The notes under the pieces are model-generated. The model saw nothing but the letters and a program-made list of their open reading frames with translations. It was not told the origin of the DNA and did no database searches. A stretch of DNA of 64,000 bases. Source: a virus. Below are positions 5,219 to 30,626 of the stretch, one piece after another. The stretch lies in IMG/VR virus record IMGVR_UViG_3300037834_000041, positions 1,609 to 65,608 of that record. One strand, given 5' to 3'. A program made the position numbers and the translations under genes. Each line of letters starts with the position of its first letter. The stretch's first letter is position 1.

Positions 5219-5916
5219 CCGCCGCAGACGAGTACACGAACCTGTCCGAACACGCGCAGCTTGCGGCTGACCATGTCTGCCGACACTGGCTCGCGACGCC
5301 TGACGTTGTGCGCCGGGTAATCTGCCCAACTCTTTCTCTCGACGCAGCACGAAAGTTCCTCGCGCGACTCGTCGAGCGGGGCTGGCTCGTCAGGCACGTG
5401 CTTCCCGAGGGCGAACCGTACTTCGTTCTGGGGAGCAAGGCTGTAGCGGCCTTCGGACTCCGCCGGTCCACTCGGGCGCTCGGCATACAAGCTCTTCTCG
5501 AACACTACGCGGTCCTACTCGCCTGCACGCGGCGGGGGTGCGGGGTCATTACCGAGGACGAGTTCCGCGCCGAGTTCCCGGACCTCTGCGAGCCGGGCCA
5601 GTCGGTGAAGAACTTCTTCGTTGACGAGACTGTCGTGCCGTTCCGCCTGGGTCTCTTCGTCGTCGATCACGACAAGCGGAGCTCCCGCCTCGTCCAGAAA
5701 GTCCGCCAGCGCATCGGCCGGATGATGGATACGGACCGACCCGCTCTCCGCCAGCTCGTTCTAAACGGCGGCCTGTCGGTCTCTGTGCTCACCGCCACCG
5801 AGGGCAAACGTGCGAACCTGGCTGCCGCGTTCGCCCGGAAGCCCCTCCGGTCCGTCGCCGTGACCGTCGAGGCCCACCCCGAACTCGAATCACTCTTCCT
5901 CGTGAACCGGAGGTAA
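5215..5916 (+). CDS. Second replication-relaxation-like protein
   Basis: wHTH motif AARKFLARLVERGWL and EHYAVL; translationally coupled to the upstream gene. Confidence 0.5.
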   Translation: MTAADEYTNLSEHAQLAADHVCRHWLATPDVVRRVICPTLSLDAARKFLARLVERGWLVRHVLPEGEPYFVLGSKAVAAFGLRRSTRALGIQALLEHYAVLLACTRRGCGVITEDEFRAEFPDLCEPGQSVKNFFVDETVVPFRLGLFVVDHDKRSSRLVQKVRQRIGRMMDTDRPALRQLVLNGGLSVSVLTATEGKRANLAAAFARKPLRSVAVTVEAHPELESLFLVNRR

Positions 5917-5921
5917 GCTCC

Positions 5922-7406
5922 ATGGCCCGAGAATGGTCTGCCCGCAAGAAGACGCATCTCGTCAAAGACGCAATCAACCCGTCTGCCTTCCGTGCCGCCT
6001 ATGCGCTCTGGCGGGAAGGCCTCGCGCTGCCCGACGCGAGAATGCTGGTGCTCCGGCTGCTCGTCGCCTACACGCTGATCTTCCTCCCGTTACAGGTCGG
6101 GGTGTACTTCCTCGCGGCCCGCTCGCTTGTTCTCGCCGCCCTGCTCACACTCGCTCTCGCGGCCGCCCTCACCGCAGTCGCCGTAGCAAAGCGGCTCGGC
6201 CTCGAAGAGCTTCTCCAGAAACTCCCGCTTCTCCTCGTCTTGGTGCTGGTCGGAGCCGGCCTCCTCTACCTCGCCGGCGATTCACCCTGGAAGAGGGACG
6301 CGGTCGGCTTCGAGTTCTTCGGCACGTTCTTCATCGTCATCGCCGTGGTCTCCGTCTTGGGGAACCTCTACCAACCGCTCGCCGCCGCCTACCAGACTCT
6401 CACCCTGAAAATTCCGGTCCGGGACCTCGCCCTCGCGGCCGCGGGGCTCCTCGTTGCACTCGCACTGGTCGCGGTGAGCCAGGTGCTTGATCGGTCAGCA
6501 GCCGTCGTTCTCGCCTTCACGCTCGCGGGCGGTTACGCCGCCCTCGTCGTCGCCGAGCACGTGGCCTGGATGCGGGCGAACCCGGCCCGGGGCCTGGACG
6601 AGGACACGCCGGATGCGACGAAACCGGAAAGCGACAGGCACCGCGTCCGCGTGCTCGCAAGCGGCCTCGTGACTGGGTTTTCCTACGGGCTCTTTGTCGT
6701 TCTCGTCATTTGGCCGCCACAGCGGGCACCGTGGACCGATCCCTCGGCGCTCTCAGGAGGGCTCCTCGACGGCACCGCCGTCGTTCGGCTCTGGTGTGTG
6801 GTGTTCTTCTCTCTCGGCCTGTTCGGCATGAACGCCACACTGGGTTCGCTCCGCTTGCCACGCCAGAAGGGCGTGTCTTACCGGCTCCCCTGGGACGCTC
6901 TGGTCGTGTTCCTGACCTACCCCAACACGACGCACCCGCTCTCTTACCGGATCGGCGCGAAGTGGTTGAGGCCGCTGGGGGTGAGGCTCGCTCTTACCGG
7001 CCTCGTGCTCTCGACCTCGACGACCGCCCTCCTGGTTTCCGTCAGGAAGCCCGACGGCGCGGCACACTCTCCCAAAGCAGTCGCCGTCGCACCGCCAGCG
7101 CATGGGGTGAGCTACCCACGTCCGCTCTCCGCCCCAGATAGGCTCTCACCGTACGAGAGATGGCACTCCGATCGTGACAGCGTCCCAGCCGTTTCAGCCG
7201 CGAACCCCGGCCCGGAGCGGGTCCAGCCGCCCGCAGAGGTAGAGTCCGGCTCCTCGTCCGCCGGGGCCTTCGTCGTCTGTGTTTTGATCCTTCTTCTGTT
7301 CCCGCCCTCACTCGTCTACGCGATGGTCTTCACGCTCGGGATGTTGGCGCTCCCGCGCTACCACCACCGCTACGAGGCTCTCCCCAGCAGCGAACCGGCC
7401 AAGTGA
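5922..7406 (+). CDS. Polytopic membrane protein (494 aa)
   Basis: Many hydrophobic segments; lies directly upstream of the coupling-protein-like ATPase. Confidence 0.65.
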   Translation: MAREWSARKKTHLVKDAINPSAFRAAYALWREGLALPDARMLVLRLLVAYTLIFLPLQVGVYFLAARSLVLAALLTLALAAALTAVAVAKRLGLEELLQKLPLLLVLVLVGAGLLYLAGDSPWKRDAVGFEFFGTFFIVIAVVSVLGNLYQPLAAAYQTLTLKIPVRDLALAAAGLLVALALVAVSQVLDRSAAVVLAFTLAGGYAALVVAEHVAWMRANPARGLDEDTPDATKPESDRHRVRVLASGLVTGFSYGLFVVLVIWPPQRAPWTDPSALSGGLLDGTAVVRLWCVVFFSLGLFGMNATLGSLRLPRQKGVSYRLPWDALVVFLTYPNTTHPLSYRIGAKWLRPLGVRLALTGLVLSTSTTALLVSVRKPDGAAHSPKAVAVAPPAHGVSYPRPLSAPDRLSPYERWHSDRDSVPAVSAANPGPERVQPPAEVESGSSSAGAFVVCVLILLLFPPSLVYAMVFTLGMLALPRYHHRYEALPSSEPAK

Positions 7407-10778: not shown

Positions 10779-13700
10779 ATGTCCGATTCCACGGGTACCC
10801 AGGCCGCCACCCCGCAGCAAGCGCAACGGTCCGCCGCCCTTTCCTCTCTCGCCGGCGGGGTGGACGCCGCCGACCGGTATCAGCTGCGCGACGAGATCGC
10901 CCGCGGCGGCATGGGCGTCGTCGTCCGCGGGTGGGACAACGTCCTCAAGCGCGAGGTCGCCGTCAAGCTCCTCCACCCGCAGTTGGTCGGATCGGCGGCC
11001 GAGCGGCAGTTCCTGGAGGAGGCGAACGTCACCGGCCAACTCCAGCACCCCGGCATCCCGCCGGTGTACGACCTCGGCACGTTCGCCGACGGCCGCTCGT
11101 TCCTCGCGATGAAGCTCGTCCGCGGCCGGACGCTCGCCGCGCTGTTGAAGGACAGCCCAGGCGACCGCGGCCGGTGGGTCGGGGTGTTCGAGGGGGTCTG
11201 CCAGGCGGTCGGGTACGCCCACCGCGAGGGGGTCGTCCACCGCGACCTGAAGCCGTCGAACGTCATGGTCGGGGAGTTCGGCGAAGTCCAGGTCATGGAC
11301 TGGGGCCTCGCGAAGGTACTGGCCCGCGGCCGGGGCCAACCGGCCGCGGCGACCCCGCCCACGGCCGCGGTCGGTTCCGAGACGGCGTCGGACGGGTCGG
11401 CCACGACCGGGGAGTGGACGCCGGCCGGGGCGGAAGGGACCACGTTCGATTCCACGCGGGACGGGACCGTCCTCGGGTCGCCGGCGTACATGCCGCCGGA
11501 GCAGGCCCGCGGCGAGGTGGCGGGCGTGGGCGAGCGGAGCGACGTGTTCGGCCTCGGCGGCGTCCTGTGCGCGATCCTCACGGGGAAGCCGCCGTTCGCC
11601 GCGCAAACGCCGCAGGCGGCGCTCGAGCGGGCCGCCAGAGCAGACTTGGCCGACGCGGTCGGCCGGCTCGATCAATGTGGGGCCGACCCCGAGTTGGTCG
11701 CGCTGTGCAAGCGGTGCCTGGCGGCGGACCCCGCCGACCGGCCGGCGGACGGCGGGGAGGTGGCGGCGGCCGTGGCGGCGTTCCGACTGGCGACCGAGGA
11801 GCGGGCGCAGCGGGCCGAGCGGGACCGGCACGCGGCCGAAATCCGGGCGGCCGAGCAGGCCCGCCGGCGGCGGGCCGTCCAGCGGTGGGCCGGGGCGGTG
11901 GCCGCCGTCCTTGCCCTCGGCGTGGTCGGGACGGCGTTCGGCCTCGTGCGGGCCGACCGCGCCCGTCGGGCCGCCGTGACGGCGCGGGACAAGGCGGCCG
12001 CTGCCCGCGACCAGGCGCTCGACGCCCTCGACGCCGTCACGTCTGATACCGCACGGGACGCCCTAATCCGTCAGGCGGCAGTCACCCCGGAGCAGCAGAA
12101 GTTTCTGACGACCGTGCTCGACCGGTATCGGGCGCTCGCGGAGGAACAGGCCGACGACGAGGCCGCCCGGTGGCGGGTGGCAAAAGCCCGATTCCAAGTT
12201 GGGACGATCGAGTATCGACTCGGCCGACCGGCCCTCGCGGAGGAAGCATTCCGCATCAGCCGGGAAGAGCTTCGGCGGTTAGCGGAGGAGAACCCGGATC
12301 GTCTGGAGTACCGTAGTCTACTCGGTCGGTCGGCGGGCAACTTGGCCATCGTCCTGCTCGACGCCCGTCGATCGGCGGAGGCGGAGGTCGTACTCCAGGA
12401 GGGATTGCCCGTCTGGGACCGGATGGTGGCGGAAGCCCCGGACGACCCGAAACCGACTTGGGGGCGGGCCAAGACCCGGACGCTGCTCGCCCGCGCGTTG
12501 GGCGACCTCAACCGACGGGACGCCGCGGTGGCCGCCTTCCGCTCGGCCGACTCGGAGCTGAGCGGAGCGTCTGCGTCAAACAAGGCCGACTACCGTATCG
12601 AGCGGGGGGTAAACCTGTCCAACTTCGCGAACGTGCTCGTCCGGTTCGGCCGGGCGGCCGAGGCCGAGGCCGAGGCCGGGAAGGCGGTCGCCGTGCTTCA
12701 GGCGCTCGTCGCCGAACAGCCCGAGGCTGCCATCCCCCGGTCGATGCTGGCGGAAGCCGTATTCGCCTGCGGTGCGGTCCGGCTGGCCCTCGGGCGGTCG
12801 GCGGACGCGGTAGCCGACTTTCAGATGGTAGCGGCCGCCCGCGAGCGGCTCGCCGCTGACTTCCCCGCGGACCCCCTCCACCGGCAGCAGCTGGCCGCGG
12901 CACAAAATGAGACCGGGCGGGCGCACGCGCTCGGCGGGCGGTTGCCGGCCGCCGAGGCCCCGTTTCGGGCCGCCGTCGCCACCGCCGAGCGACTAGCCGC
13001 CGACCACCCAACCAGAGACGAGTACCGACAGGATGTGGCCAAGTACCACAGTAACCTCGGCCAACTGTTGGTTCAACTGAACCGACCGGCCGAGGCCGAA
13101 CCACTCCTCCAGGCGGTAGCCGCGGTCCGTCAGGCGGCGCTGTCGGCGAACCCGGCGTCCGTGCCGGCGCTCATTTCGTTCGCCGAGATTCAGAGCATCC
13201 TCGGCCAGTGCCATCGGGGGCTGCGGCGGTACGATCGGGCGGAGGCAGCGTACCGGGCGGCCCTGGACGCGGCCGAAAAGGTGGCGGCCGCCCGGCCCGC
13301 CGATCCGGGGTCGGTCGTGCGGGTGGCGGGGCTGCTCAGCAACCTCGGGGTGCTGCTCTCCGCCACCGGCCGCCACGCCGAGGCCGTCGCGCTCTTTACC
13401 CGGTCGGCCGACGCCCTCGCCCCGGCGTTCGCGACCGCCCCCAACGATCTGACTGTCCGGATCTACCTGCGGAACGCGAACGGGAATCGGGCGGAGGCGC
13501 TCGGCAAACTCGGCCGGCACGCCGACGCCCTGCCCGCGTGGGACCGGGCGCTGGAACTGGCGTCCCCGGCCGAGGTGCCGAGGATTCGCACCTTCCGGGC
13601 CTACGCCCGCGTACGGGCCGGCCGGTCGGCCGACGCCGTCGCCGAGACGAACGATCTCGCCGCCGACCCGCGCTGCCCGGCCGACCGGCTGTACGCCTTG

Positions 13701-13931
13701 GGGTGTGTTGTCGCCCTGGCGGCGGCCGCCGACCCGGCCCGCCGGGACGAGTACGCCGGCCGCGCGGTCGAGTTGCTCCGACGGGCGAAGGTGGGCGGGT
13801 TCTCGGACCTGGCGCGCATGGCGGCCGACGACGACCTGGCCGTGCTCCGCGACCGGCCCGACTTCCGGTCGTTGACCGCGAGGCGAGAACCCGCCCCGCC
13901 GCCGCGCGAACCCGTGCCCGACGGGAAGTAA
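10779..13931 (+). CDS. Serine/threonine protein kinase with a TM segment and TPR repeats (1050 aa)
   Basis: IARGGMGVV, VAVK, HRDLKPSN, DWG, GSPAYMPPEQ, SDVFGLG; TM segment near aa 370-390; C-terminal TPR-like repeats. Confidence 0.93.
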   Translation: MSDSTGTQAATPQQAQRSAALSSLAGGVDAADRYQLRDEIARGGMGVVVRGWDNVLKREVAVKLLHPQLVGSAAERQFLEEANVTGQLQHPGIPPVYDLGTFADGRSFLAMKLVRGRTLAALLKDSPGDRGRWVGVFEGVCQAVGYAHREGVVHRDLKPSNVMVGEFGEVQVMDWGLAKVLARGRGQPAAATPPTAAVGSETASDGSATTGEWTPAGAEGTTFDSTRDGTVLGSPAYMPPEQARGEVAGVGERSDVFGLGGVLCAILTGKPPFAAQTPQAALERAARADLADAVGRLDQCGADPELVALCKRCLAADPADRPADGGEVAAAVAAFRLATEERAQRAERDRHAAEIRAAEQARRRRAVQRWAGAVAAVLALGVVGTAFGLVRADRARRAAVTARDKAAAARDQALDALDAVTSDTARDALIRQAAVTPEQQKFLTTVLDRYRALAEEQADDEAARWRVAKARFQVGTIEYRLGRPALAEEAFRISREELRRLAEENPDRLEYRSLLGRSAGNLAIVLLDARRSAEAEVVLQEGLPVWDRMVAEAPDDPKPTWGRAKTRTLLARALGDLNRRDAAVAAFRSADSELSGASASNKADYRIERGVNLSNFANVLVRFGRAAEAEAEAGKAVAVLQALVAEQPEAAIPRSMLAEAVFACGAVRLALGRSADAVADFQMVAAARERLAADFPADPLHRQQLAAAQNETGRAHALGGRLPAAEAPFRAAVATAERLAADHPTRDEYRQDVAKYHSNLGQLLVQLNRPAEAEPLLQAVAAVRQAALSANPASVPALISFAEIQSILGQCHRGLRRYDRAEAAYRAALDAAEKVAAARPADPGSVVRVAGLLSNLGVLLSATGRHAEAVALFTRSADALAPAFATAPNDLTVRIYLRNANGNRAEALGKLGRHADALPAWDRALELASPAEVPRIRTFRAYARVRAGRSADAVAETNDLAADPRCPADRLYALGCVVALAAAADPARRDEYAGRAVELLRRAKVGGFSDLARMAADDDLAVLRDRPDFRSLTARREPAPPPREPVPDGK

Positions 13932-14410: not shown

Positions 14411-15796
14411 TCATGACTTTTGGCACGTATTCATCGCGTTCAACGGTCGCGGTACACCCTCCGGAACACCCTGACCGGTCAAGGTCTTGATGATCTCGAC
14501 GCAGAGGCGGAGGTTGTTTTCCAGTTCCTCTCGGCTTAGTGTTCGCAGTTCGTCCCCAGCCCCGCCGTCGCCAATGAGCGGGAGCTTGCCCACCGATTCG
14601 GCCAGTTGTCCTTCCCCCACATGGGTGTAGACCGCGAGCGTCAGGGTCGGGTCCGAGTGGCGGGCCAACAACTGAAGCTCCTTCACGCCGATCTTCGCGG
14701 CCGCGAGGCACGAGACGAACGTGTGCCGCAGGGCGTGGAAGTCGAGGCACTTGACGCCCTCGGCCGTCTGCACCTTGTACGCGACGCCGGCGGCCCGGAG
14801 GTCGGCCCGCAGCATCTTCACCGGCTGAAACCGCCACGTCCCCGGCCAAAGCGGACCGTCCTCCTTCCCGGCGAGGTACTCCCGGAACTGTTGGGCGACG
14901 TTGGGCGGTATCGGCTGCCGGACCAACTTTCGGTTCTTCTTCCGCGGGTCGCCGGGCAGGACGACCACCGGGGGCCGGTCGTCGATCGCTAGGTGGCACT
15001 TCGAGAGCCGCGCCAGTTCCGACGCCCGGAACCCGGTTGAGAAGCCGAGCAGGTAGACGTGGTATCGGTCCGCCCCGCTCAGGCCCCGCCACTCCTCCTT
15101 CGAGTTGCGGGCCGCCAGCAACAGGGCCGCCAGCTCCGCCGGCGTCCCGACCCGCCGGAGGTGGACGCGGTTGGCCTTCGGGTCGAAGCCCACCACGTCA
15201 TCGAACAGGTCGGCGCGGACCGGGAGCCGCTTCCGGACTGAGAGCCACCACACGAACCGCTTCGCGGCCTTCCGGTAGAAGTCGGCGCTCTGGTGGCTGA
15301 ACCCGCCGTCCTTCCGGGGCAGCGAGACCCGTTCCAGGAGCCACCGGGCCAGGGCCTTCGGCGCGGCCGCGTTGAGGTTCGAGCAGGTGACGAACTTGCA
15401 TGCGTCCAGCATCGTGCGGACGCGCTGCAGGTTCAGGTCAACTTGTTCGGGCGACGGGAGCCGGGACTTGCCCCGCACCTTGCTGCCCAGACCGACGGCC
15501 ATGTCCTCGCCGAACTCCGGCAGCAGCGCGGCGAGTTGCTTCGCCCCGCCGTTCCGCTCGGGAAGGTCGTGGATGCCCCGTTCCGCGTCGGACACCATCT
15601 TCGCCAACATCGCCTCGGCCACCCGCCGGTCGGCCGACAGCGGGAACCCCTTCTTCGGCGGGAAGCCGGGGACGCCGCGGCCGTACCATTTCCGGGTCTT
15701 GACGTTGAACTTCCGCGCCCCCGGCGCGGCCTTGTCGCACCGGCGGCCGGCCGCGTCCCGGTAAATCGTCTTCGTGATCTTGATGAGCGACGGCAT
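14411..15796 (-). CDS. int: Tyrosine recombinase (prophage integrase)
   Basis: Catalytic motifs STGFRASEL, KKNRK, DFHALRHTF, ARHSD, AVYTH; adjacent to the tRNA fragment. Confidence 0.93.
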   Translation of the reverse strand: MPSLIKITKTIYRDAAGRRCDKAAPGARKFNVKTRKWYGRGVPGFPPKKGFPLSADRRVAEAMLAKMVSDAERGIHDLPERNGGAKQLAALLPEFGEDMAVGLGSKVRGKSRLPSPEQVDLNLQRVRTMLDACKFVTCSNLNAAAPKALARWLLERVSLPRKDGGFSHQSADFYRKAAKRFVWWLSVRKRLPVRADLFDDVVGFDPKANRVHLRRVGTPAELAALLLAARNSKEEWRGLSGADRYHVYLLGFSTGFRASELARLSKCHLAIDDRPPVVVLPGDPRKKNRKLVRQPIPPNVAQQFREYLAGKEDGPLWPGTWRFQPVKMLRADLRAAGVAYKVQTAEGVKCLDFHALRHTFVSCLAAAKIGVKELQLLARHSDPTLTLAVYTHVGEGQLAESVGKLPLIGDGGAGDELRTLSREELENNLRLCVEIIKTLTGQGVPEGVPRPLNAMNTCQKS

Positions 15797-16394: not shown

Positions 16395-16573
16395 CATTCC
16401 TTCTCGACGGCGGGCGGCTTGGGGTCGCCCTTCAGATACTTGCTCAACTTGTCCCTGGCCGCGCCGTAGAATACGACGGCCAGCACGATCAGGAAGACGG
16501 CGAGGCAACCGCCGATCGTCCCGTTGAACCCCTTCTCGAGACTCGATTCTTCCTTCGGGTCTTTCGCTTCCAT
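16394..16573 (-). CDS. Small single-TM membrane protein (59 aa), possibly superinfection-exclusion-type
   Basis: MEAKDP...TIGGCLAVFLIVLAVVFYGAA; co-oriented with the repressor candidate. Confidence 0.5.
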   Translation of the reverse strand: MEAKDPKEESSLEKGFNGTIGGCLAVFLIVLAVVFYGAARDKLSKYLKGDPKPPAVEKE

Positions 16574-16649
16574 CACAGTCACCCTCAGCAGCACCGTCGG
16601 GGGCGGAACACCGGACCGCTTATCATTCGAGCGTGCCGAGTGCGGCGCG

Positions 16650-16841
16650 TCACTTGTCCTTCTTGGCGTTCTCGCGGGCGCGGATCGCCTCCCTGATGAG
16701 CAAGTTCGCGTGGTACGAGAGGCTATTTTTCTTGCCGATGTCGGGCAGGGCCGCAAGCAGGTCGTACACGTCGCGATCCAACGTGACGCGAACCTGGGCG
16801 GCGGATGGCTTCGGTTCGGCGGGCGGCTTCTTCTTTCCCAT
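16650..16841 (-). CDS. Ribbon-helix-helix (Arc/CopG-like) regulator, candidate phage repressor (63 aa)
   Basis: QVRVTLDRDVYDLLAAL...SLSYHANLLIREAI pattern; divergent from the early operon. Confidence 0.65.
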   Translation of the reverse strand: MGKKKPPAEPKPSAAQVRVTLDRDVYDLLAALPDIGKKNSLSYHANLLIREAIRARENAKKDK

Positions 16842-16906
16842 GGCCAGAATTGAACGGACGGCGCGGGAAGGTGCAAGCCGAATCAGTGAAGATTTCGGGC
16901 TGGAAT

Positions 16907-16971
16907 CGGCTGTGACGGCCGAGGATGGGCTGAGTTAGCCCGTTTCAGGCTAAAGTAGCCCGCGTCAGGCT
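16907..16971. promoter_or_regulatory. Operator array in the divergent switch region: GGCT-N5-AGCC at 20-bp period
   Basis: GGCT at 16908, 16928, 16948 and 16968; (A/G)GCC at 16917, 16937 and 16957; perfect GGGCT-GAGTT-AGCCC at 16927-16941. Confidence 0.65.
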
Positions 16972-17029
16972 GCCGATGGGTAATAGTGTCAGGGCAATCG
17001 CAACGAGCGACGAGAACCGAGGTGATGGG

Positions 17030-17293
17030 ATGCGGGCCGCGAAGAAGATCACCGTGAAGCAGATGCGGGCGATGATCCGGGAGTACACCGACGGGAAAAC
17101 CCGGTCCCTTCCGACGATCCGCCGGTGGCTTCAGAGCGGCGTCCACCTCGACGCGACGAACGAGCTTGTCACCTTGCCCTCGACGACCTGCCCCACAACC
17201 GGCACGCGGGAGATCCTGTACGCGGACGCCGTGGCCTTCTGCGAGAAGGTGTTCGGCAAGAAAGGCAAGGTGGCGAGTGGGCAAGGCGGTTGA
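17030..17293 (+). CDS. Cro-like/HTH early regulator (87 aa)
   Basis: GAGGTG RBS; TVKQMRAMIREYTDGKTRSLPTIRRWLQSG; first gene of the early operon. Confidence 0.55.
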   Translation: MRAAKKITVKQMRAMIREYTDGKTRSLPTIRRWLQSGVHLDATNELVTLPSTTCPTTGTREILYADAVAFCEKVFGKKGKVASGQGG

Positions 17294-17573
17294 ACTGCTC
17301 CGGGAGATTCGAGACGCCCTCGCCGCGCCGAAGAAGTTGCTGCTGACGGCTCGGGAGGCTTCCCAACTCCTGGGTATCTGCGTCGCGTCATTGCACGCCG
17401 GGGAGAATTCGGGCCGGATGCCGGCCGCCGTCGAGACCGTCGGAGGCCCCCGGTGGCGGAGAGAGGAATTAGAGCAATGGGTTCGATCGCTGAAGCCTCG
17501 AAGGAAGAAACGCCCGCGGAACCCCTGGGGCGCGAAAGGCCAACCAAAGACGGTCGAATCCGCGACAGCCTGA
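17277..17573 (+). CDS. AlpA/excisionase-like HTH protein (98 aa)
   Basis: LLLTAREASQLLGICVASL...GRMPAAVETVGGPRWRREELEQWV. Confidence 0.75.
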   Translation: MGKAVELLREIRDALAAPKKLLLTAREASQLLGICVASLHAGENSGRMPAAVETVGGPRWRREELEQWVRSLKPRRKKRPRNPWGAKGQPKTVESATA

Positions 17574-17605
17574 TCCGGGAACTGGCCCGGCTACCCGATC
17601 CCCCG

Positions 17606-17791
17606 ATGGCCGACGAATTGCGGCGGGCTTACCTCCGGGAACTGGTCGCGCATCACGGGCGGCAGCCGAACAAGCTGGCCCCGATACTCGGGGTGTCGTT
17701 GAAGACGGTTTACAACTGGCTCCACGAACTGGAGGCGAAAGGTGAGTATCCCGTCGTCGAGCCGACCGCTGCTGTTGGGTGGGGAATGTAA
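17606..17791 (+). CDS. Fis-type HTH protein (start may lie slightly upstream)
   Basis: YLRELVAHHGRQPNKLAPILGVSLKTVYNWL. Confidence 0.65.
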   Translation: MADELRRAYLRELVAHHGRQPNKLAPILGVSLKTVYNWLHELEAKGEYPVVEPTAAVGWGM

Positions 17792-18041
17792 GCCGGCGAA
17801 GTCGCCGCCACCGCCCGATCCGCTGGACGAGATCATCGGCCAGTGCGAGCGGTTCAAGTGGCTGGCGAACACGCTGGCCTAGATGGAGAACCGACACCGG
17901 GCGGCGGCGCTCCTGCGGTTCATGGTGGACGAGCTGGAAGACTACGCCCGGAAGCTGTTCGACTTCCCGGACGCGACCGCCGACGACGTGCGGCTGTGCG
18001 TCCAGTACGGGTGCGATCCCTCGGAACTACCGAGGTGGTGA
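17775..18041 (+). pseudogene. Small ORF interrupted by an in-frame TAG at 17880-17882, or two coupled mini-ORFs
   Basis: ...DPLDEIIGQCERFKWLANTLA*MENRHRAAALLRFMVDELEDYARKLFDF... with coding-like codon usage on both sides of the stop. Confidence 0.45.
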
Positions 18042-18060
18042 CAGCAAACACAAGCCAGTC

Positions 18061-18185
18061 ACGGCTTGGCCTGGTGCGGCCGGACCTGGCTCGGCGGGGT
18101 GTGGCAGGGCGCGGCGGGGTATGGCAGGGCGTGGCTGGGTGTGGCTCGGCGCGGCTTGGCCTGGCCGGTCGAGGCGCGGCAAGGC
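18061..18185 (+). ncRNA. NN-GGY pentamer array 1 (25 units), candidate non-contiguous guide RNA (vrRNA-like)
   Basis: Strict 5-nt period; 23 of 25 units end in GGC or GGT (exceptions GAC at 18083 and GTC at 18168); NN is variable; intergenic and abuts the RBS of the RAMP-like gene. Confidence 0.8.
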
Positions 18186-18205
18186 TTTTCCACAAAGGAG
18201 TATGT

Positions 18206-18838
18206 ATGAGCAGCAAGACGACGGCGAGAAGCGGCGCGGCCAAGTCGCGGGCCGAAAAAGGCACGCGGGGCATCGTGACTCGGTCCGTGTCGATCGATGG
18301 CATCACCGACGTGATGTTCGACCGGTACCCCGGCGACAACCAAACGGTACTGGAAGCATGGCAAAAGCTCTATTTCGACCCGGCGAACGATCGACACCTC
18401 GTGTTGCCTTCGCAGAATCTCATGTCGTTTCTATCGGCCCAGAACACGGATTCCGCGCCGAAGCGACTCCTGGACGCGAGGACGTACAAGAAGACAGCCC
18501 TGGCGTGCCTGTCGTTCGTGACCATCGGGCCGGCGTACATCCCGTTCCTCCGGGACGGTAAGCCCGTGGCGTTCGGCCGGTTCGAGGGCGACCGCGACCC
18601 GGAATCCGGCGTCTATATCCATCGCAGCGTAGCGCGGCTGGAGAAGGGGATCCCGAACCCGAAGGTCCGGCCGGTGCTGCCGCTGCCGTGGTCGCTGGCG
18701 TTCACCATCACGATCTACCCGAACCCGCACCTGCAAGAACAGCAGCTCATCAACATCTTCGAGGGCGGCGGGATCGCCCTCGGCATCGGGACCTTCCGCG
18801 GGCAGTTCGGCAAGTTCCGAGTTGCATCGTGGGAATGA
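18206..18838 (+). CDS. Stand-alone RAMP/Cas7-like protein (210 aa), candidate Vipr-type RNA-guided effector
   Basis: AAGGAG RBS; beta1 VSIDGITDVMFD, LVLPSQNLMSFL, extended hairpin HRSVARLEKGIPNPKVRP, WSLAFTITI, and C-terminal Gly-rich loop GGGIALGIGTFRGQFGKFRV; flanked by two GGY arrays. Confidence 0.75.
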   Translation: MSSKTTARSGAAKSRAEKGTRGIVTRSVSIDGITDVMFDRYPGDNQTVLEAWQKLYFDPANDRHLVLPSQNLMSFLSAQNTDSAPKRLLDARTYKKTALACLSFVTIGPAYIPFLRDGKPVAFGRFEGDRDPESGVYIHRSVARLEKGIPNPKVRPVLPLPWSLAFTITIYPNPHLQEQQLINIFEGGGIALGIGTFRGQFGKFRVASWE

Positions 18839-18841
18839 TGC

Positions 18842-18946
18842 AGGGCGCGTCGCGGCTCGGTACGGCGTGGCCGGGTAGGGCGGGGCACGGCCCGGCATGG
18901 CGAGGCCGCGCATGGCGCGGCAAGGCGATGCATGGCGTGGCGAGGC
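18842..18946 (+). ncRNA. NN-GGY pentamer array 2 (21 units), candidate guide RNA
   Basis: Starts 4 nt after the RAMP-like stop; 18 of 21 units are GGY (exceptions GTC at 18849, CGC at 18909, TGC at 18929); followed by hairpin TCCTT-ATTTC-AGGGA. Confidence 0.8.
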
Positions 18947-18978
18947 TCCTTATTTCAGGGACCAATACGAGGTTGCAG

Positions 18979-19194
18979 ATGATTAAGACCTACGCGCACC
19001 ACGCCCCCTCAGCATACGGCTTGGAAGCGATCCGCTGTATCCGAGAAGCCTTCTCGGAACTGCATGAGAAGATCGAAGCCGCTTGCCCGGCCTCGCGCGA
19101 GCGGAGTGTCGCACTCACGGAGTTGGAAACCTCCGCGATGTGGGCGATCAAGAGCATTGTTCTGAACGACCCGGATTCCGAGATCACGAAGTAG
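18979..19194 (+). CDS. Acb2/Tad1-like hairpin-domain protein, putative immune second-messenger sponge (71 aa)
   Basis: GAGG RBS; YAHHAPS...CPASRERSVALTELETSAMWAIKSI resembles the SRE-x-S-x-A-x-T-x-LE-x-A-x-MW motif of the Acb2/Tad1 superfamily. Confidence 0.65.
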   Translation: MIKTYAHHAPSAYGLEAIRCIREAFSELHEKIEAACPASRERSVALTELETSAMWAIKSIVLNDPDSEITK

Positions 19195-19201
19195 TTCAGC
19201 T

Positions 19202-19273
19202 TGCGGGGTGGAGAAGAGGTATCTCGCCAGGCTCATAACCTGGAGGTCGCCGGTTCGACCCCGGCCCCCGCAA
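19202..19273 (+). tRNA. tRNA-Met(CAU), initiator-like; CCA not encoded
   Basis: Acceptor TGCGGGG/CCCCGCA, D-stem GAGA/TCTC (A11:U24), anticodon arm CCAGG-CTCATAA-CCTGG, T-arm GCCGG-TTCGACC-CCGGC. Confidence 0.93.
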
Positions 19274-19304
19274 CTTCCCGCGCATCGCGGGGATCAAGAG
19301 GTGA

Positions 19305-19724
19305 GTGATGAAGCGATTCTTGTTGCGGGCCGCGTGCGCGGCCCTGGTGGTGTGCTGCGCCCTCTCGGACGCGCAGGCCGGCCCCCTGAAGCGGCTGCTC
19401 GCCGGGCGGCGGTCGTGTGACGGCCCTGCCCCCCGGCGAATTGCCGAGGTCCGGGCGGAGCGACGCGGCGAATCCCCGTCGTGTTCCACCGGGACCGTGA
19501 CGTTCCGGCAGGTCGCTAGCGTGGCGGTGCTGCCGGTGGCGAAGTTCACGAACGGCGCGCCGGCGGTCCGGGCGGTCGAGATCCCCGTGACCCTACCGTC
19601 GGCCCAGGCCGCGACATTCGACTTCGCAAGCGAGTTCAAGTCCGCGCCGGCGTCGTGCGTGGACTGCCACAAGCAGCCTCAACCGTCTTCCTCGCCACCG
19701 CGGTTCTTCCGCGGGCGGCGGTAA
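19305..19724 (+). CDS. Secreted hypothetical protein with signal peptide
   Basis: MMKRFLLRAACAALVVCCALSDAQA signal peptide; CVDC near the C-terminus. Confidence 0.6.
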   Translation: MMKRFLLRAACAALVVCCALSDAQAGPLKRLLAGRRSCDGPAPRRIAEVRAERRGESPSCSTGTVTFRQVASVAVLPVAKFTNGAPAVRAVEIPVTLPSAQAATFDFASEFKSAPASCVDCHKQPQPSSSPPRFFRGRR

Positions 19725-19778
19725 CCGACCTCCCGGCCCGTGGTGGGGTGCGTTGCCCCAGGGTGTTCGAGGTGACGG

Positions 19779-20009
19779 ATGCCCGCGGAGACCACGGGCC
19801 GGGAGGATTCACCCGTGATCGATTCGAACAAGGTCGAGTTAATCGTCGTCGCCCTGGGCCTGCTCGTGGTCGCGCTACTCGCGGCCCTCGGCGGCCCCGG
19901 CGACGGCCCGGACGAGTCCGAAACAACCCCGGCCGGGGGCGGTCATGTTCCCGTTCCGCCCGCCGCTGCTCTTGGAGTTGGGCAGTGGCACACCGGCCGG
20001 GGTTTCTGA
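19779..20009 (+). CDS. Small membrane protein (start probably ~19816)
   Basis: TM segment LIVVALGLLVVALLAALG. Confidence 0.45.
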   Translation: MPAETTGREDSPVIDSNKVELIVVALGLLVVALLAALGGPGDGPDESETTPAGGGHVPVPPAAALGVGQWHTGRGF

Positions 20010-20024
20010 ACAAGGGGGTTCGTC

Positions 20025-20270
20025 ATGTTGGACACGCTGAACAAGTGCCGGCTCGAAACGCTCTGCGACGCGAAGGGCTGCCGAATGGTGGACGCCCTGG
20101 AGGTGGTGAAGGCCGTGTTCGCCAAGTTCCGCACCGTCGATGCCATGCGGAACGGGGCGAAGGTGGACGGCCAGGACCACAACACGGTCAGCTACGCCCG
20201 GAAGGTCTGTTCGCAGAAGAACCTCCCGTCGGCCGTGGAGGACGCGGTGTGGGCGTTCTTCACGGACTGA
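20025..20270 (+). CDS. Hypothetical protein (81 aa)
   Basis: ORF in operon orientation with an RBS-like GGGGG upstream. Confidence 0.55.
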   Translation: MLDTLNKCRLETLCDAKGCRMVDALEVVKAVFAKFRTVDAMRNGAKVDGQDHNTVSYARKVCSQKNLPSAVEDAVWAFFTD

Positions 20271-20296
20271 AACAGTCAAACACCAAGAGGTTGACG

Positions 20297-20908
20297 ATGG
20301 AAGGTTTCGCATACGTCCTTCGCTCGTGCCCGGCGAGCATGGTCGCACAGAACAATTTCAAGTGGCCTGAAAGCGGCCGGGCCGAGTGCCCGGACTGGAA
20401 CCCGAAGCCCGAATGCGGGAACGGTCTGCACGGTCTACTTTGGGGTATCGGCGACTGGTCTCTCTCCCATCTCTCCGATCCGACCGCGAAATGGCTCGTC
20501 GTCGAGGTGAAGATGGCCGAAGTCGTTGATCTCGTGGACAAGGTCAAGTTCCCGTCCGGCAACGTCGTCTACTGCGGCGGGTTGCCGGGCGCGCAGTCTT
20601 TGATTGCAGAAAAGCGTCTGCTTCATTTGGCATCGACCGCGGGCGAACAGGCTCCGGCATCGACCACGGGCTACAAGGCTCCGGCATCGACCACGGGCGA
20701 ACATTCGGTGGCCTGCTGTCTCAAACAACACGCAGTCGCGAAGTGTGGTCCGAACGGCTCCATCATTCTGTCTTGCTGGGACGGCACGCGACTTCGGCAT
20801 GTCGTCGCTTACGCGGGCGAGAACGGTATTGAGCCTGGCGTTTGGTACGAGTTGTCCCAATCAGGGCAGGTCGTTAAGGCTGCGGACCAAAACCCTTTGT
20901 CGGATTGA
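20297..20908 (+). CDS. Conserved phage protein (DUF7666-like) with three 9-aa repeats
   Basis: GAGG RBS; CPDWNPKPECGNGLHG...WLVVEV...KVKF motif; ASTxGxxAP repeats (27-bp period, 20630-20702). Confidence 0.65.
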   Translation: MEGFAYVLRSCPASMVAQNNFKWPESGRAECPDWNPKPECGNGLHGLLWGIGDWSLSHLSDPTAKWLVVEVKMAEVVDLVDKVKFPSGNVVYCGGLPGAQSLIAEKRLLHLASTAGEQAPASTTGYKAPASTTGEHSVACCLKQHAVAKCGPNGSIILSCWDGTRLRHVVAYAGENGIEPGVWYELSQSGQVVKAADQNPLSD

Positions 20909-20940
20909 ATCTTGGCTCTGGCGGCGGCCCCCTCGCCGCC

Positions 20941-21007
20941 CCCGACTCCGCCGGGCGGTCGCGCGTAGGAGTGAGCGCGGCGTGGGTTCGACTCCCGCGG
21001 GTCGGGT
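20941..21007 (+). ncRNA. tRNA-like element (degenerate tRNA or tRNA mimic)
   Basis: 8-bp acceptor-like stem CCCGACTC/GGGTCGGG and canonical T-arm GTGGG-TTCGACT-CCCGC. The D-arm is vestigial, and a 7-bp stem carries a 10-nt loop with no canonical anticodon loop. Confidence 0.5.
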
Positions 21008-21034
21008 TTCTTTGGCCGGCGGGAACCCCGTGCG

Positions 21035-21613
21035 ATGCAGGCTTCCGAATCGGACGTGTTGCTCGAAAACGAGGAGCGGATCCGCCGGCTGGTCGCGTGC
21101 GTGTTGCAAGGGTCCACGCTCAACCACCTGGAATCGTTCGACGACCTGATGCAAGTCGGGCGGATGGGCTGCTTGGAGGCGTGGCGGAAGTACAACCCCG
21201 ACCTCGGCAAGACGTTCTGGAACTACGCGAACCAGCGGGTGTACGGCGCGGTCGTCGATCACCTGGGGACGTGCGGGCTGGTGAAGCGGAAACACAGGCG
21301 GGCGGGCCGTGAACTGCCCGTCGTATTCGCCAAGCTCGCGGACGAGAAGGGCCAGATGGGCCAGTACGAGCCGTCGTACACCGTCGCCCTCGGCGAGGAG
21401 TCGGACTTCGACGAGTTCTTGGGGTTGGCGTTGCTCCGCAGCCTATCGCGGACGGAGCGGGAGATCCTTGCCGATTATTTCGTGGCCGGCCGGCTGATGA
21501 AGGAGATTGGCGCGGCCCGCGGGGTGAGCGAGTCGCGGATTTCGAACATCGTCCAACGTGTGCTGAGGCAGTTGCGAGAGGAGGCCAATGGTGAACCGGC
21601 AAGCGTTTCTTGA
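21035..21613 (+). CDS. Phage-encoded sigma-70 family factor (FliA/WhiG-like)
   Basis: Region 2 DLMQVGRMGCLEAWRKYNPDLGKTFWNYANQRVYGAVVDHL; region 4 LSRTEREIL...MKEIGAARGVSESRISNI. Confidence 0.85.
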   Translation: MQASESDVLLENEERIRRLVACVLQGSTLNHLESFDDLMQVGRMGCLEAWRKYNPDLGKTFWNYANQRVYGAVVDHLGTCGLVKRKHRRAGRELPVVFAKLADEKGQMGQYEPSYTVALGEESDFDEFLGLALLRSLSRTEREILADYFVAGRLMKEIGAARGVSESRISNIVQRVLRQLREEANGEPASVS

Positions 21614-22469
21614 AGACCGCCGCAAGGGAATAGGGAGCAGCGACGTTGCCAAGGTTCTGGGGCTGTCCCGGTTCGGCACGGCCCTGGACGTGTACCTGAG
21701 CAAGGTCCGGCCGGCCGACGCCACGGAGATGACTACGCATCAGGAGTGGGGCGTTCGTGCGGAACCGATGATCGCGGCCGCGATCTGCGACCACCACGGG
21801 TGGACGTTGAACAAGATTCCGACCGTCATTCACCGCGAGCATCGGTTCCTGCGGGCGTCCCCGGACCGGCTGAATCAATCGGGCGAGGCTGTCGAGATCA
21901 AGACCACGGCCCGCGCCGACGGGTGGGGCGAGCCGGAGACGGACGAGGTCCCCGAAGACTACTGGCTTCAGGCCCAGCACCAGCTTGAAGTTCTCCATGA
22001 GACCTACGGCACGGAAGTGTGCTGGGTGTTCGTGCTGGTCGGCGGCTCGGACTTCCGCCGCTACCGCGTGCCCCGCGACCCCGGCTACCTGGACACGGTG
22101 TTCGACCCGCTCCGGGAGTTCTGGCGGTGCGTCGAGGAGGAGACCCCGCCGCCGCCGGACTGGTCGCACCGGTCAACGCTTGATGCCTTGCAGAAGCTGC
22201 ACACGCCGATCAAGGGCCGGGCCGTGTCGCTCGACGACGAGGCTCAGCGGCTGGCCGACCGGTACTCGGCCCTCGGCGACGAGATTTCCGGGCTGAAGGA
22301 CCAGCGGGACGAGGTGAAGGCCCGGCTCGTCGCGGCCCTCGAAGACGCGGAAACCGGGATGCTGCCCGACGGTCGGCTCGTCGCCCGGAAGGAAGTTCAC
22401 CGCAAAGAGTACACGGTCCAGGCCACCAGTTACTTTGACCTACGAATCAGGAAAGGATGGGCATCGTGA
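21588..22469 (+). CDS. YqaJ-like viral recombinase exonuclease
   Basis: RRKGIGSSDV, ASPDRL, VEIKT, YWLQAQHQL. Confidence 0.9.
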   Translation: MVNRQAFLEDRRKGIGSSDVAKVLGLSRFGTALDVYLSKVRPADATEMTTHQEWGVRAEPMIAAAICDHHGWTLNKIPTVIHREHRFLRASPDRLNQSGEAVEIKTTARADGWGEPETDEVPEDYWLQAQHQLEVLHETYGTEVCWVFVLVGGSDFRRYRVPRDPGYLDTVFDPLREFWRCVEEETPPPPDWSHRSTLDALQKLHTPIKGRAVSLDDEAQRLADRYSALGDEISGLKDQRDEVKARLVAALEDAETGMLPDGRLVARKEVHRKEYTVQATSYFDLRIRKGWAS

Positions 22470-23413
22470 GCCAAGCCATCACGGAGATCGAGGACACCGG
22501 GTCGATGTTGCCGGGGTTCCTCCCGGCGGCCCAGACCGTCAACCACCAGATCCAGCTCGCCGCGGCGCTCCTGGACAAGCGGATCGCGACGGCCCGGAGC
22601 TTCCCGCGGTCGATCGCCCGGTTCAAGGGCGAGGCGACGGAGCTGCTGAAGACGGACATCGACACCGCCCGCAGCGCCGAGTACGCGAAGCCGGTCGGCG
22701 GCGGGAAGGTCGTCGGTCCGTCCGTCCGCCTCGCGGAGCTGGTCGCGATGTGCTGGCAGAACCTGGACATCACCGTCGAGGAGCCGGTCGCCACGGAGAA
22801 GACGGTCAGCGCGAAGGCGTCCGCCTGGGACCTGCAACGCAACCTGCGGCAGGAAGCGGTCGTCACCACGTCGATCCTGAACAAGAACGGCAACCGCTAC
22901 CCGCAGCACCTGATCGAGACGGCGGGCATGGCGTGCCAGGCGAAGGCCCGGCGGAACGCGATCCTGGCCGTCATCCCGCGGGCGTACATCAACGACCTTC
23001 TCGAAGTAGCCCGCGAGGTCGTGAAGGGCAATCAGGAACCGCTCGAAGTGACGCGGAAGAAGATGCTGGAGTTCTTCTCCCGCAGCTACAAGGTCAGCGA
23101 GGAACAGATCTGCAAGGCCCTGGACGTGGCCGGCGTGGACGACATCACGCAAAAGGGCATCGACGACCTGCGGTTGATCGCCAACGGGCTGAAGGAGGGC
23201 GAGCCGTTGGAGGCGTTCTTCGAGCCGCAGACCACGTCCCGACTCGATGGCGTGAAGCAGAAGATCCAGGACCGCCGCGGCAAGGGCGGTGACAAGCCGG
23301 CCGAGAAGAAGCCCGCGGACAAGCCGCCGGAATCGCCGACGGAGCAGCCGGGCGGCGGGAAGCTGTTCGGCGACGGCCCAGAGAAGACGGACATGGACGC
23401 AATCAGGAGGTAG
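22457..23413 (+). CDS. Putative single-strand annealing protein (partner of YqaJ)
   Basis: Directly follows the exonuclease; PVGGGKVVGPSVRLAE motif; disordered C-terminal tail. Confidence 0.55.
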   Translation: MGIVSQAITEIEDTGSMLPGFLPAAQTVNHQIQLAAALLDKRIATARSFPRSIARFKGEATELLKTDIDTARSAEYAKPVGGGKVVGPSVRLAELVAMCWQNLDITVEEPVATEKTVSAKASAWDLQRNLRQEAVVTTSILNKNGNRYPQHLIETAGMACQAKARRNAILAVIPRAYINDLLEVAREVVKGNQEPLEVTRKKMLEFFSRSYKVSEEQICKALDVAGVDDITQKGIDDLRLIANGLKEGEPLEAFFEPQTTSRLDGVKQKIQDRRGKGGDKPAEKKPADKPPESPTEQPGGGKLFGDGPEKTDMDAIRR

Positions 23414-30044: not shown

Positions 30045-30626
30045 GTGGAAGTGCAACAACGCGCCGAAGGTGCAAGGGTGGCATACCCGCTGTTCCAGGT
30101 GGGAGGGGGCGGTTCGAGTCCGACCTCGGCGCTTCAACTGACGTTCGAGCGGGTGCGGTTTGATACGGCGATGGAACTGAACCGGCTTTGGCATTCCCGG
30201 CTTCCCCGGATGGGGACCGGGGCCATCAAGAACCCGGAACGGCGGTTCACCTGCTTCTGCGGCATCTACGGCGGCCTGATCTACTGCGTCGGCATCTGGT
30301 CGTTGCCGGCAGCGCGAGCCTTGCCCCAGGACGGGACGTGGTTGGAACTACGGAGGTACGCGATTGCCCCAGACGCTCCCAAGAACACGGGCAGTCGGGG
30401 CTTGCGAGTGATGGAACTCCTGATCCGTCGCCAGTTACCGGCCGTCCGCCGGCTGTGCAGCTCGCAGGACACCGAGGCTCACACCGGCTGCATCTACCGC
30501 GCGGCCGGGTGGAAGCCTGCCCGACTCAGCGATGGCGGCGAATGGGACACGCCGGCACGAAGACGGCCGAAGGTCCAAAGCGACGCCCCGAAGCAACGGT
30601 GGGACAAGGTCATCCATGCAGGCTGA
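30045..30626 (+). CDS. Mom-family (GNAT-fold) adenine-modification protein
   Basis: GIWSLPAAR, WLELRRYAIAPDAPKNTGSR, QDTEAHTGCIYRAAGW. Confidence 0.7.
   Translation: MEVQQRAEGARVAYPLFQVGGGGSSPTSALQLTFERVRFDTAMELNRLWHSRLPRMGTGAIKNPERRFTCFCGIYGGLIYCVGIWSLPAARALPQDGTWLELRRYAIAPDAPKNTGSRGLRVMELLIRRQLPAVRRLCSSQDTEAHTGCIYRAAGWKPARLSDGGEWDTPARRRPKVQSDAPKQRWDKVIHAG

What the first reader, a model, noticed from the sequence alone, without database searches (positions are those of the whole stretch)
18842..18961. Array 2: a second, different guide string with a 3' hairpin
Seen: NN string AG GC GC TC AC GT CG AG GG AC CC AT GA CG AT GC AA GA AT GT GA; deviant units GTC, CGC and TGC. The 5-nt register extends back into the stop codon (GA-TGC at 18837-18841). 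The array is followed by TCCTT-ATTTC-AGGGA (18947-18961), so both arrays end in a small stem-loop. The string differs from array 1, which argues against simple duplication. Inference: one effector with at least two independent targets.
Basis: partly seen in the sequence, partly recalled or inferred. Interest (0 to 1): 0.7.

Follow-up and report, generated by a model that had tools for sequence, protein, structure and literature searches.

The report
Second VIPR guide array in prophage
This tract of 5-base repeats is very probably a guide-RNA gene of a VIPR system, a CRISPR-like phage weapon first described in 2026 preprints, so it is a new example of a known kind, and its DNA target is still unknown.

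Summary
Window 18839-18948 (+) is a strict 5-nt array of 22 units: 18 GGY plus TGC, GTC, CGC and TGC. A different 25-unit array (18063-18185) lies upstream of the same 210-aa gene (18206-18838).

That gene encodes a Vipr protein. A family profile hits PDB 36pp "SUSP1 Vipr protein" at E 2.4e-9. The AF2 model (pLDDT 94.6) matches Cas7-type proteins (Csm3, Cmr4) at Z up to 12.2.

Across 27 related loci, 48 such arrays lie on the vipr strand and none on the opposite strand. In 1.07 Mb of unrelated loci there are none. GGY is conserved and NN differs in every relative. Two near-identical contigs differ only at N positions and by one 5-nt unit.

The locus is therefore a VIPR system (bioRxiv 10.64898/2026.04.26.720920 and .720927) in a planctomycete-type provirus. 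Array 2 most likely encodes one or more vrRNAs.

Three things are not supported:
- The 3' hairpin folds no better than shuffled sequence, and its sequence was not found elsewhere.
- No target was found under the published 1-nt-skip rule.
- No RNA data exist.

This scan has already found VIPR loci on other DNA. Verdict: new member of a known kind.

The parts
18839..18948 (+). Array 2: 22 units of GGY-NN (18 GGY; deviants TGC u1, GTC u3, CGC u15, TGC u19). Candidate vrRNA gene or genes. The longest uninterrupted GGY run is u4-u14 (18854-18908).
   Evidence: arrays in the same position and on the same strand downstream of vipr in 19 of 27 related loci
18947..18961 (+). 3' tail with possible 5-bp hairpin UCCUU/AGGGA. 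It is T-rich, as in many relatives. No function shown.
   Evidence: dG -6.2, z +0.35; no exact copy in IMG/VR; clade 3' motif
18206..18838 (+). vipr gene, 210 aa (P0002): minimal Cas7-like RAMP with G-loop GIGTFRGQFGKF
   Evidence: (PDB 36pp SUSP1 Vipr, E 2.4e-9)
18063..18185 (+). Array 1: 25 GGY-NN units (23 GGY; GAC u5, GTC u22), ending AA-GGC-TT. Its tail TTTTCCACAAAGGAG overlaps the vipr ribosome-binding site.
18979..19194 (+). 71-aa Acb2/Tad1-hairpin protein gene (P0003), starting 31 nt after array 2's last NN (18948). Neighbour, not a conserved part of the system.
   Evidence: PF24729, E 4.6e-12, above the curated cut-off; no homologue beside vipr in 27 other loci
17477..17791 (+). 104-aa helix-turn-helix protein gene (P0004) upstream. 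Possible but unproven accessory (vap-like) gene.
   Evidence: HTH_23 E 2.3e-5, just under the cut-off; not conserved beside vipr elsewhere
14411..15796 (-). Tyrosine integrase that marks the prophage end. The VIPR locus lies about 2.3 kb inside it, in the early or immunity region.
   Evidence: PF00589 E 3e-11; record is an IMG/VR provirus

Best explanation
Array 2 is a vrRNA-coding array of a VIPR (Viral Interference Programmable Repeat) system carried by a provirus. The model below is taken from the published SUSP1 and P. fulva systems; none of its steps is shown for this locus. The array is transcribed with, or next to, vipr. Vipr protomers bind the RNA one per 5-nt unit and hold each GGY in protein pockets. 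The filament displays the 21-22 NN dinucleotides, which pair with double-stranded DNA that carries the same dinucleotides separated by one skipped base, (xNN)n, about 63-66 bp here. Binding silences transcription of a rival mobile element. Array 1 carries a different NN string, so the one Vipr protein would be directed to at least two sites. Shown here: the repeat anatomy, the homology and fold of the protein, and the link of arrays to vipr across relatives, always on the same strand, with conserved GGY and hypervariable NN. Inferred: expression, processing, filament formation on this RNA, the targeting rule and the biological target.
For: (1) Protein. A profile of 77 family members hits PDB 36pp 'SUSP1 Vipr protein' at E 2.4e-9, with the G-loop aligned. 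The single sequence gives E 0.066, and SUSP1 R138, W178 and R179 (named as RNA contacts in the paper) align to R155, F197 and R198. R198 and G202 are invariant and R155 is at least 90% conserved in the family. The AF2 model has pLDDT 94.6. Its best structural matches are Cas7-family RAMPs: Foldseek E 5e-5 at probability 1.0; VIA Z 12.2, rmsd 4.1, 157 residues aligned to Csm3; all 30 chains with Z of 8 or more are CRISPR RAMPs. (2) Array. 22 units with 18 GGY, and periodic matches 40 against 3.45 expected. (3) Link to vipr. In 27 non-redundant vipr loci (219 kb) there are 48 arrays of 9 or more units on the vipr strand and 0 on the other strand, with 46 within 700 nt of vipr. In 129 unrelated loci (1.07 Mb) there are none. 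(4) Guide-like variation. Over 46 arrays the triplets are GGC 697, GGT 58 and about 9% single-base deviants of the same kinds as here, while NN differs in every locus, even at 77% protein identity. Two contigs that are 99.7% identical over 2,493 bp differ only by 3 substitutions at N positions and one 5-nt unit. (5) Context. IMG/VR provirus, 2.3 kb from the integrase, as for most published VIPRs. (6) No self-target in the window, as published for natural guides. (7) A trimer model gives a head-to-tail interface that includes the G-loop: ipSAE 0.51, best of 3 controls 0.00; the mark was reached by 20 of 30 proteins solved as pairs of one chain and by 1 of 23 solved as single chains; the runs agree in at least 70% of contacts and partner pLDDT is at least 83. 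This may reflect the model's memory of solved Cas7 filaments.
Against: Expression was not testable with the data at hand, so transcription and processing are not shown. Four of 22 units are not GGY, and the paper reports that perturbing GGY motifs abolishes silencing, although its methods also note 'frequently observed internal degeneracy'. At 22 units the array is longer than the 9-16 repeats described for the characterised clades. It has no recognisable conserved structured tail. No conserved accessory (vap) gene lies beside vipr in this clade. The mechanism rests on 2026 preprints about distant relatives; sequence similarity to SUSP1 Vipr is detectable only with a profile.
Confidence: 0.85

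Rival explanations
1. Array 2 is a decayed or inactive vrRNA array. It descends from a VIPR guide, but the units TGC, GTC, CGC and TGC break the filament, so it no longer guides anything, or only the 11-unit run u4-u14 does.
For: 4 of 22 units are not GGY. GGY perturbation abolishes silencing in SUSP1 (paper). The last NN is GA rather than the clade's usual AA.
Against: The same single-base deviants (GTC, TGC, CGC, GAC, AGC, GGA) make up about 9% of units across 46 arrays of the clade, and the authors note frequent internal degeneracy. vipr itself is intact and highly conserved.
Confidence: 0.1
2. Cis-acting leader only. The GGC triplets spaced by 2 nt are binding sites for an oligomeric protein that controls translation of the gene that follows, as 11 G/UAG triplets with 2-3-nt spacers bind TRAP in Bacillus (my own knowledge). 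There would be no trans guide function.
For: Array 1 ends 20 nt before the vipr ATG and its tail can pair with the ribosome-binding site. Array 2's last NN (18948) lies 30 nt before the ATG of the Acb2-like gene (18979). 13 of 27 loci have an array just upstream of vipr.
Against: The protein is a Vipr homologue whose relatives use such RNAs as trans guides. NN hypervariability with focused turnover is not expected for mere spacers. Many downstream arrays are followed by other arrays or tails, not by a gene start. This reading could hold in addition to guide function.
Confidence: 0.04
3. Non-functional simple sequence, or a DNA-level structure (slippage microsatellite, G-rich R-loop or two-tier G-quadruplex tract).
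For: GG recurs every 5 nt on one strand. There are internal duplications of units (TRF period 10 at 18910-18941 and period 20 in array 1).
Against: Placement always on the vipr strand and next to vipr in 20 of 27 loci from different phyla, against none in 1.07 Mb of control DNA. The third base C/T is conserved while the next two bases vary freely, which slippage does not produce.
Confidence: 0.01

Closest known systems
VIPR systems, type II references: Escherichia phage SUSP1 and a Pseudomonas fulva prophage (bioRxiv 10.64898/2026.04.26.720920, 10.64898/2026.04.26.720927, 10.64898/2026.10.15.759431; PDB 36pp)
   Same: A lone Vipr RAMP of about 200 aa with a G-loop. GGY-NN tandem repeats in the intergenic DNA on both sides of vipr, on its strand. 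Conserved GGY and hypervariable NN. Several different arrays for one protein. Prophage location. No self-target.
   Different: Similarity to SUSP1 Vipr is detectable only with a profile (E 2.4e-9; G-loop D177 is T196 here). There are 22 and 25 units here, and 9-40 in the clade, against 9-16. No pseudoknot-like conserved tail was found. No conserved vap neighbour. The arrays abut the ribosome-binding sites of vipr and of an Acb2-like gene. Expression, target and VIPR type (I-VII) are undetermined.
Class 1 CRISPR Cas7 backbone on crRNA (Csm3, Cmr4, Cas7)
   Same: Same RAMP fold (Z up to 12.2). By analogy, one protomer per fixed RNA step, with a thumb that interrupts pairing.
   Different: No CRISPR repeats, no cas1/cas2, no other cas genes. 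The RNA step is 5 nt with 2 informative bases, not 6 nt with 5. The guide is non-contiguous.
Homologue in cultured Burkholderia phage vB_E436 (PQ789831.1, vBE436_00039, annotated hypothetical protein)
   Same: 59% identical Vipr over 89% of P0002, with an array of about 15 units directly upstream of the gene. It is the nearest relative in a deposited phage genome.
   Different: Its units alternate GGC and GGA. It has no downstream array; the next gene starts 3 nt after vipr.
TRAP-trp leader RNA of Bacillus (my own knowledge, resemblance only)
   Same: Conserved triplets separated by 2 free bases, bound one per protein subunit, located over a ribosome-binding site.
   Different: Unrelated protein fold and a ring instead of a helical filament. 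TRAP spacers carry no information. Not a family relationship.

Membership tests
VIPR system | Vipr protein: small single-RRM RAMP with glycine-rich loop and thumb, homologous to published Vipr | tested here: met
   Profile against PDB: 36pp SUSP1 Vipr, E 2.4e-9. AF2 pLDDT 94.6. Cas7-family matches: Foldseek E 5e-5; VIA Z 12.2, rmsd 4.1, 157 aligned. G-loop GIGTFRGQFGKF aligns to GVGDWRPRFGRF.
VIPR system | Tandem 5-nt GGY-NN (YNNGG) repeats, at least 4 units, in intergenic DNA flanking vipr on its strand | tested here: met
   22 units (18 GGY) at 18839-18948 and 25 units (23 GGY) at 18063-18185, both on the + strand.
VIPR system | GGY conserved and NN hypervariable among related loci | tested here: met
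   46 arrays in 25 loci: GGC 697, GGT 58, about 9% deviants. NN differs in every locus. In the L032/L033 pair all differences are at N positions plus one unit indel.
VIPR system | Invariable, structured 3' tail after the repeats (a pseudoknot in the SUSP1 clade) | tested here: inconclusive
   The hairpins are at shuffle level (z +0.35 and +0.28). There is no exact copy of the tail in IMG/VR. Tails are alike within a locus but differ between loci. The clade motif AA-GGC-AA-GGY plus a T-run is only partly present in array 2.
VIPR system | Adjacent accessory gene (vap1-6), typical of most types | tested here: inconclusive
   No neighbour family is shared across 28 vipr loci at BLASTP E 1e-5. An HTH protein gene lies 415 nt upstream (17477-17791). 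The paper lists six vap genes for seven types, so one type may lack a vap.
VIPR system | Encoded mainly by phages and prophages | tested here: met
   IMG/VR provirus record, integrase 2.3 kb away, 20 relatives in IMG/VR contigs.
VIPR system | Stable vrRNA of about 100 nt that co-purifies with Vipr | not testable with these tools
   No RNA-derived data could be examined for this locus; needs small-RNA sequencing and Vipr pull-down.
VIPR system | Natural DNA target matching the NN string under the 1-nt-skip rule (at least 80% NN match) | tested here: inconclusive
   Only chance-level matches in the window and related loci, IMG/VR seeds u4-11, u8-15, u15-22, the metagenome seed u4-12, and 401 Planctomycetota genomes with u4-16 and up to 3 mismatches. 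The seeds needed 8-9 perfect units, so diverged targets would be missed.
CRISPR-Cas | CRISPR repeat-spacer array and further cas genes (cas1/cas2, large subunit, Cas5/Cas6) | tested here: not met
   No repeat-spacer array in the tandem-repeat list. The neighbouring genes are an HTH protein, a 52-aa ORF, an Acb2-like protein and a tRNA.

The most novel reading that the evidence does not exclude
In this vap-less clade the arrays have a second role as cis-regulatory leaders. Vipr assembling on array 1, whose tail overlaps the vipr ribosome-binding site, would feed back on its own translation. Assembly on array 2, whose last NN lies 30 nt before the start codon of the Acb2/Tad1-like sponge gene, would tie expression of an anti-CBASS/anti-Thoeris gene to the state of the RNA-guided silencer. 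Guides of 20-40 units would also give footprints of 60-120 bp, far longer than those described.
Probability: 0.15. Interest if true: 0.6.

Novelty: new member of a known kind. Interest (0 to 1): 0.35.

Why it matters
VIPR was described only in 2026 and has been tested in two proteobacterial clades. This locus belongs to a large, well-conserved Vipr clade: more than 1,200 clusters at 90% identity, from Planctomycetota, Burkholderiales and Ignavibacteriaceae MAGs, viral contigs and one cultured Burkholderia phage. The clade has long arrays, no conserved accessory gene, and here an anti-defence sponge gene directly behind the array. It offers test material for three open questions: how long a vrRNA can be, whether degenerate units are tolerated, and how NN strings turn over. 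The L032/L033 pair shows change confined to N positions and whole units. As a finding in itself it is an instance of a published system, not a new principle.

Tried and rejected
My first ideas, before reading the papers, were a TRAP-like ring-binding track, a pac or ori site, and a G4 or R-loop tract. The Vipr homology and NN variation set them aside.

Target searches, all at chance level:
- Both arrays against the window and 20 related loci with skips of 0-3 bases.
- IMG/VR exact seeds for array 2: u4-11, u8-15, u15-22 (best extension 28 of 44).
- Metagenome contigs, seed u4-12.
- Array 1 seeds (best 29 of 50).
- All 12-unit windows of all arrays against all loci held, 1.26 Mb, looking for guides aimed at rival vipr genes.
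- 401 Planctomycetota genomes, u4-16 with up to 3 mismatches.
- A positive control with a relative's 20-unit array from L003: best 28 of 40, not convincing. So the 1-nt-skip rule is not confirmed for this clade either.

Other dead ends:
- Exact tail sequence in IMG/VR: none.
- Reading array 2 as codons gives, on the reverse strand, a peptide that looked HTH-like to me. Pfam gave no hit for it, for the forward peptide, or for two shuffles. The peptide was too short for the large protein search. It stays an impression only.
- Rfam over 16500-21500: no ribozyme or other family in the arrays.
- Sequencing runs: no RNA holder listed; the only holder is the probable source DNA run.
- Sigma-70-type promoter and terminator scan: nothing useful near the arrays.
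- Host family: a host-flank protein gave only 35-36% identity in 401 genomes, so no family-level genome set could be chosen.
- The paper's supplementary tables are not held, so the VIPR type could not be assigned.

Full report
**1. What is there.**
Between the stop codon of a 210-aa gene (18206-18838, P0002) and the start of a 71-aa gene (18979-19194, P0003) lies a strict 5-nt array on the + strand. Read from 18839 it has 22 triplets in phase: 16 GGC, 2 GGT, and TGC, GTC, CGC, TGC. Each triplet is followed by two free bases.

A four-unit GGC pattern with one mismatch allowed matches 40 times in the window against 3.45 expected. Of these, 34 fall in this array and in a second one at 18063-18185, all on the + strand.

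The second array has 25 units with a different NN string. It ends 20 nt before the ATG of P0002, at a good ribosome-binding site. No further array exists on either strand of the window.

**2. The protein between the arrays.**
P0002 has no Pfam family. It belongs to a large family: 1,276 clusters at E ≤ 0.001, the best 120 of them 60-77% identical, and 258 representatives at 50% clustering.

- A profile of 77 members hits PDB 36pp, "SUSP1 Vipr protein", at E 2.4e-9 over the C-terminal half including the glycine-rich loop.
- The single sequence already aligns GIGTFRGQFGKF to GVGDWRPRFGRF, and R155 to R138.
- In the structural preprint, R138, W178 and R179 contact the GGY bases. Here they align to R155 (at least 90% conserved in the family), F197, and R198 (invariant). 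D177 aligns to T196.
- The AF2 model is confident (pLDDT 94.6).
- Its structural neighbours are only CRISPR RAMPs of the Cas7 group: Foldseek E 5e-5, and VIA Z 12.2, rmsd 4.1, 157 residues aligned to Csm3, with every chain at Z of 8 or more a RAMP.
- A three-copy model gives an asymmetric head-to-tail interface that includes the G-loop. The score is ipSAE 0.51, best of 3 controls 0.00. The mark was reached by 20 of 30 proteins solved as pairs of one chain and by 1 of 23 solved as single chains. The runs agree in at least 70% of contacts and partner pLDDT is at least 83. The model may simply recall Cas7 filaments.

**3. The arrays travel with the gene.**
I examined 27 non-redundant loci with a homologue: IMG/VR contigs; MAGs of Pirellulales, Planctomycetaceae, Castellaniella and Ignavibacteriaceae; Logan contigs; and Burkholderia phage vB_E436.

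- They hold 48 arrays of 9 or more GGY units on the vipr strand and none on the opposite strand.
- 46 of the 48 lie within 700 nt of the gene.
- 129 unrelated loci (1.07 Mb) hold none.
- The loci below the threshold mostly carry shorter or variant arrays, for example GGC/GGA alternation in the Burkholderia phage.
- Array length is 9-40 units, median 15.
- Deviant triplets are single-base variants of GGC, of the same kinds as in the window, at about 9% of units.
- No neighbouring protein is conserved across these loci, so gene plus arrays form a self-contained cassette.

**4. NN behaves like guide sequence.**
NN strings share nothing between loci, even at 77% protein identity. Two contigs from sister samples encode the identical protein and are 99.7% identical over 2,493 bp. 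They differ only inside one array: three substitutions, all at N positions, and one indel of exactly one 5-nt unit. This is one pair of short-read contigs, so an assembly effect in a repeat cannot be excluded. Three other near-identical pairs have identical arrays.

**5. Tail.**
The same holds for array 1 (z +0.28). The tail sequence has no exact copy in IMG/VR. Tails are alike within a locus but differ between loci.

What the clade shares is AA-GGC-AA-GGY followed by a T-rich stretch. Array 1 fits it (AA-GGC-TT-TTCC). Array 2 fits loosely (GA-GGC-TC-CTTATTTC).

**6. What it is.**
They describe Viral Interference Programmable Repeat systems with these features:

- a lone ancestral RAMP (Vipr);
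- vrRNAs made of GGY/NN repeats plus a tail;
- one protomer per repeat in a helical filament;
- the NN bases pairing with DNA in which every third base is skipped;
- transcriptional silencing of rival phages and satellites;
- a location mostly in prophages.

The locus meets the testable defining features (protein, array, variation pattern, context). The tail, the vap gene and the target are left open, and expression cannot be tested here.

**7. Target.**
I used the published ungapped informative-position scoring with shuffled-guide nulls and found no self-target. No target turned up for array 2 or array 1 in IMG/VR, JGI metagenome contigs or 401 Planctomycetota genomes. These searches were limited by the need for 8-9 perfect seed units, or at most 3 mismatches. 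A positive control with a relative's array also failed. The targeting rule is therefore inferred for this clade, not shown.

**8. Verdict.**
It is a new member of a known kind. This scan has already met VIPR loci on other DNA. The modest points of difference are long arrays, no conserved accessory gene, arrays placed against ribosome-binding sites, and an Acb2/Tad1-like sponge gene directly downstream.

Noticed in passing
window 18979-19194 (+): The 71-aa protein P0003 matches Pfam Acb2_Tad1_hairpin (PF24729, E 4.6e-12, 46.4 bits against a cut-off of 27) and phrog_1454. It is a likely anti-CBASS/anti-Thoeris nucleotide sponge directly behind the guide array. No homologue lies beside vipr in the 27 other loci.
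   Followed up: partly
L032:2987-3054 vs L033:2045-2117: Two contigs 99.7% identical over 2,493 bp, encoding an identical Vipr protein, differ only in one array: 3 substitutions, all at N positions, and one whole-unit (5-nt) indel. This suggests fast, unit-wise turnover of guides, or an assembly effect in a repeat.
   Followed up: partly
window 18088-18155 (array 1); L004:2762-2934; L002:3602-3799: Long arrays contain internal duplications of blocks of units: TRF period 20 in array 1, and repeated 8-9-unit NN blocks in L004. Long arrays may therefore grow by block duplication, or may hold staggered guides.
   Followed up: no
L134 (Burkholderia phage vB_E436, PQ789831.1, record 30424-31038 and upstream): A cultured phage carries a 59%-identical Vipr homologue annotated as a hypothetical protein. 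An array of about 15 units directly upstream alternates GGC and GGA. This could be a laboratory model for the clade.
   Followed up: partly
L009:3007-3621 and 4730-5341: One viral contig carries two vipr paralogues, each with its own arrays (4558-4660 and 5974-6016).
   Followed up: no
window 20911-21007 (+): ARAGORN calls a 97-nt tRNA-Gly(tcc) here. Rfam finds no tRNA or other family at E of 1 or less in 16500-21500, apart from the tRNA-Met at 19202-19273.
   Followed up: partly
window 21035-23413 (+): Early-region genes downstream: a sigma-70-family factor (regions 2 and 4, 21035-21613) and a YqaJ-type exonuclease (21588-22469). A host-like Ser/Thr kinase-TPR gene (10779-13931) lies outside the integrase end.
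   Followed up: no
46 arrays in 25 related loci: NN usage is skewed: the first base is A or G in about 74% of units, CT is 1% and AA is 18%. The AA excess is partly due to the 3' AA-GGC-AA motif. The purine excess would fit guides identical to the sense strand of coding targets (codon position 1), but this was not tested.
   Followed up: no
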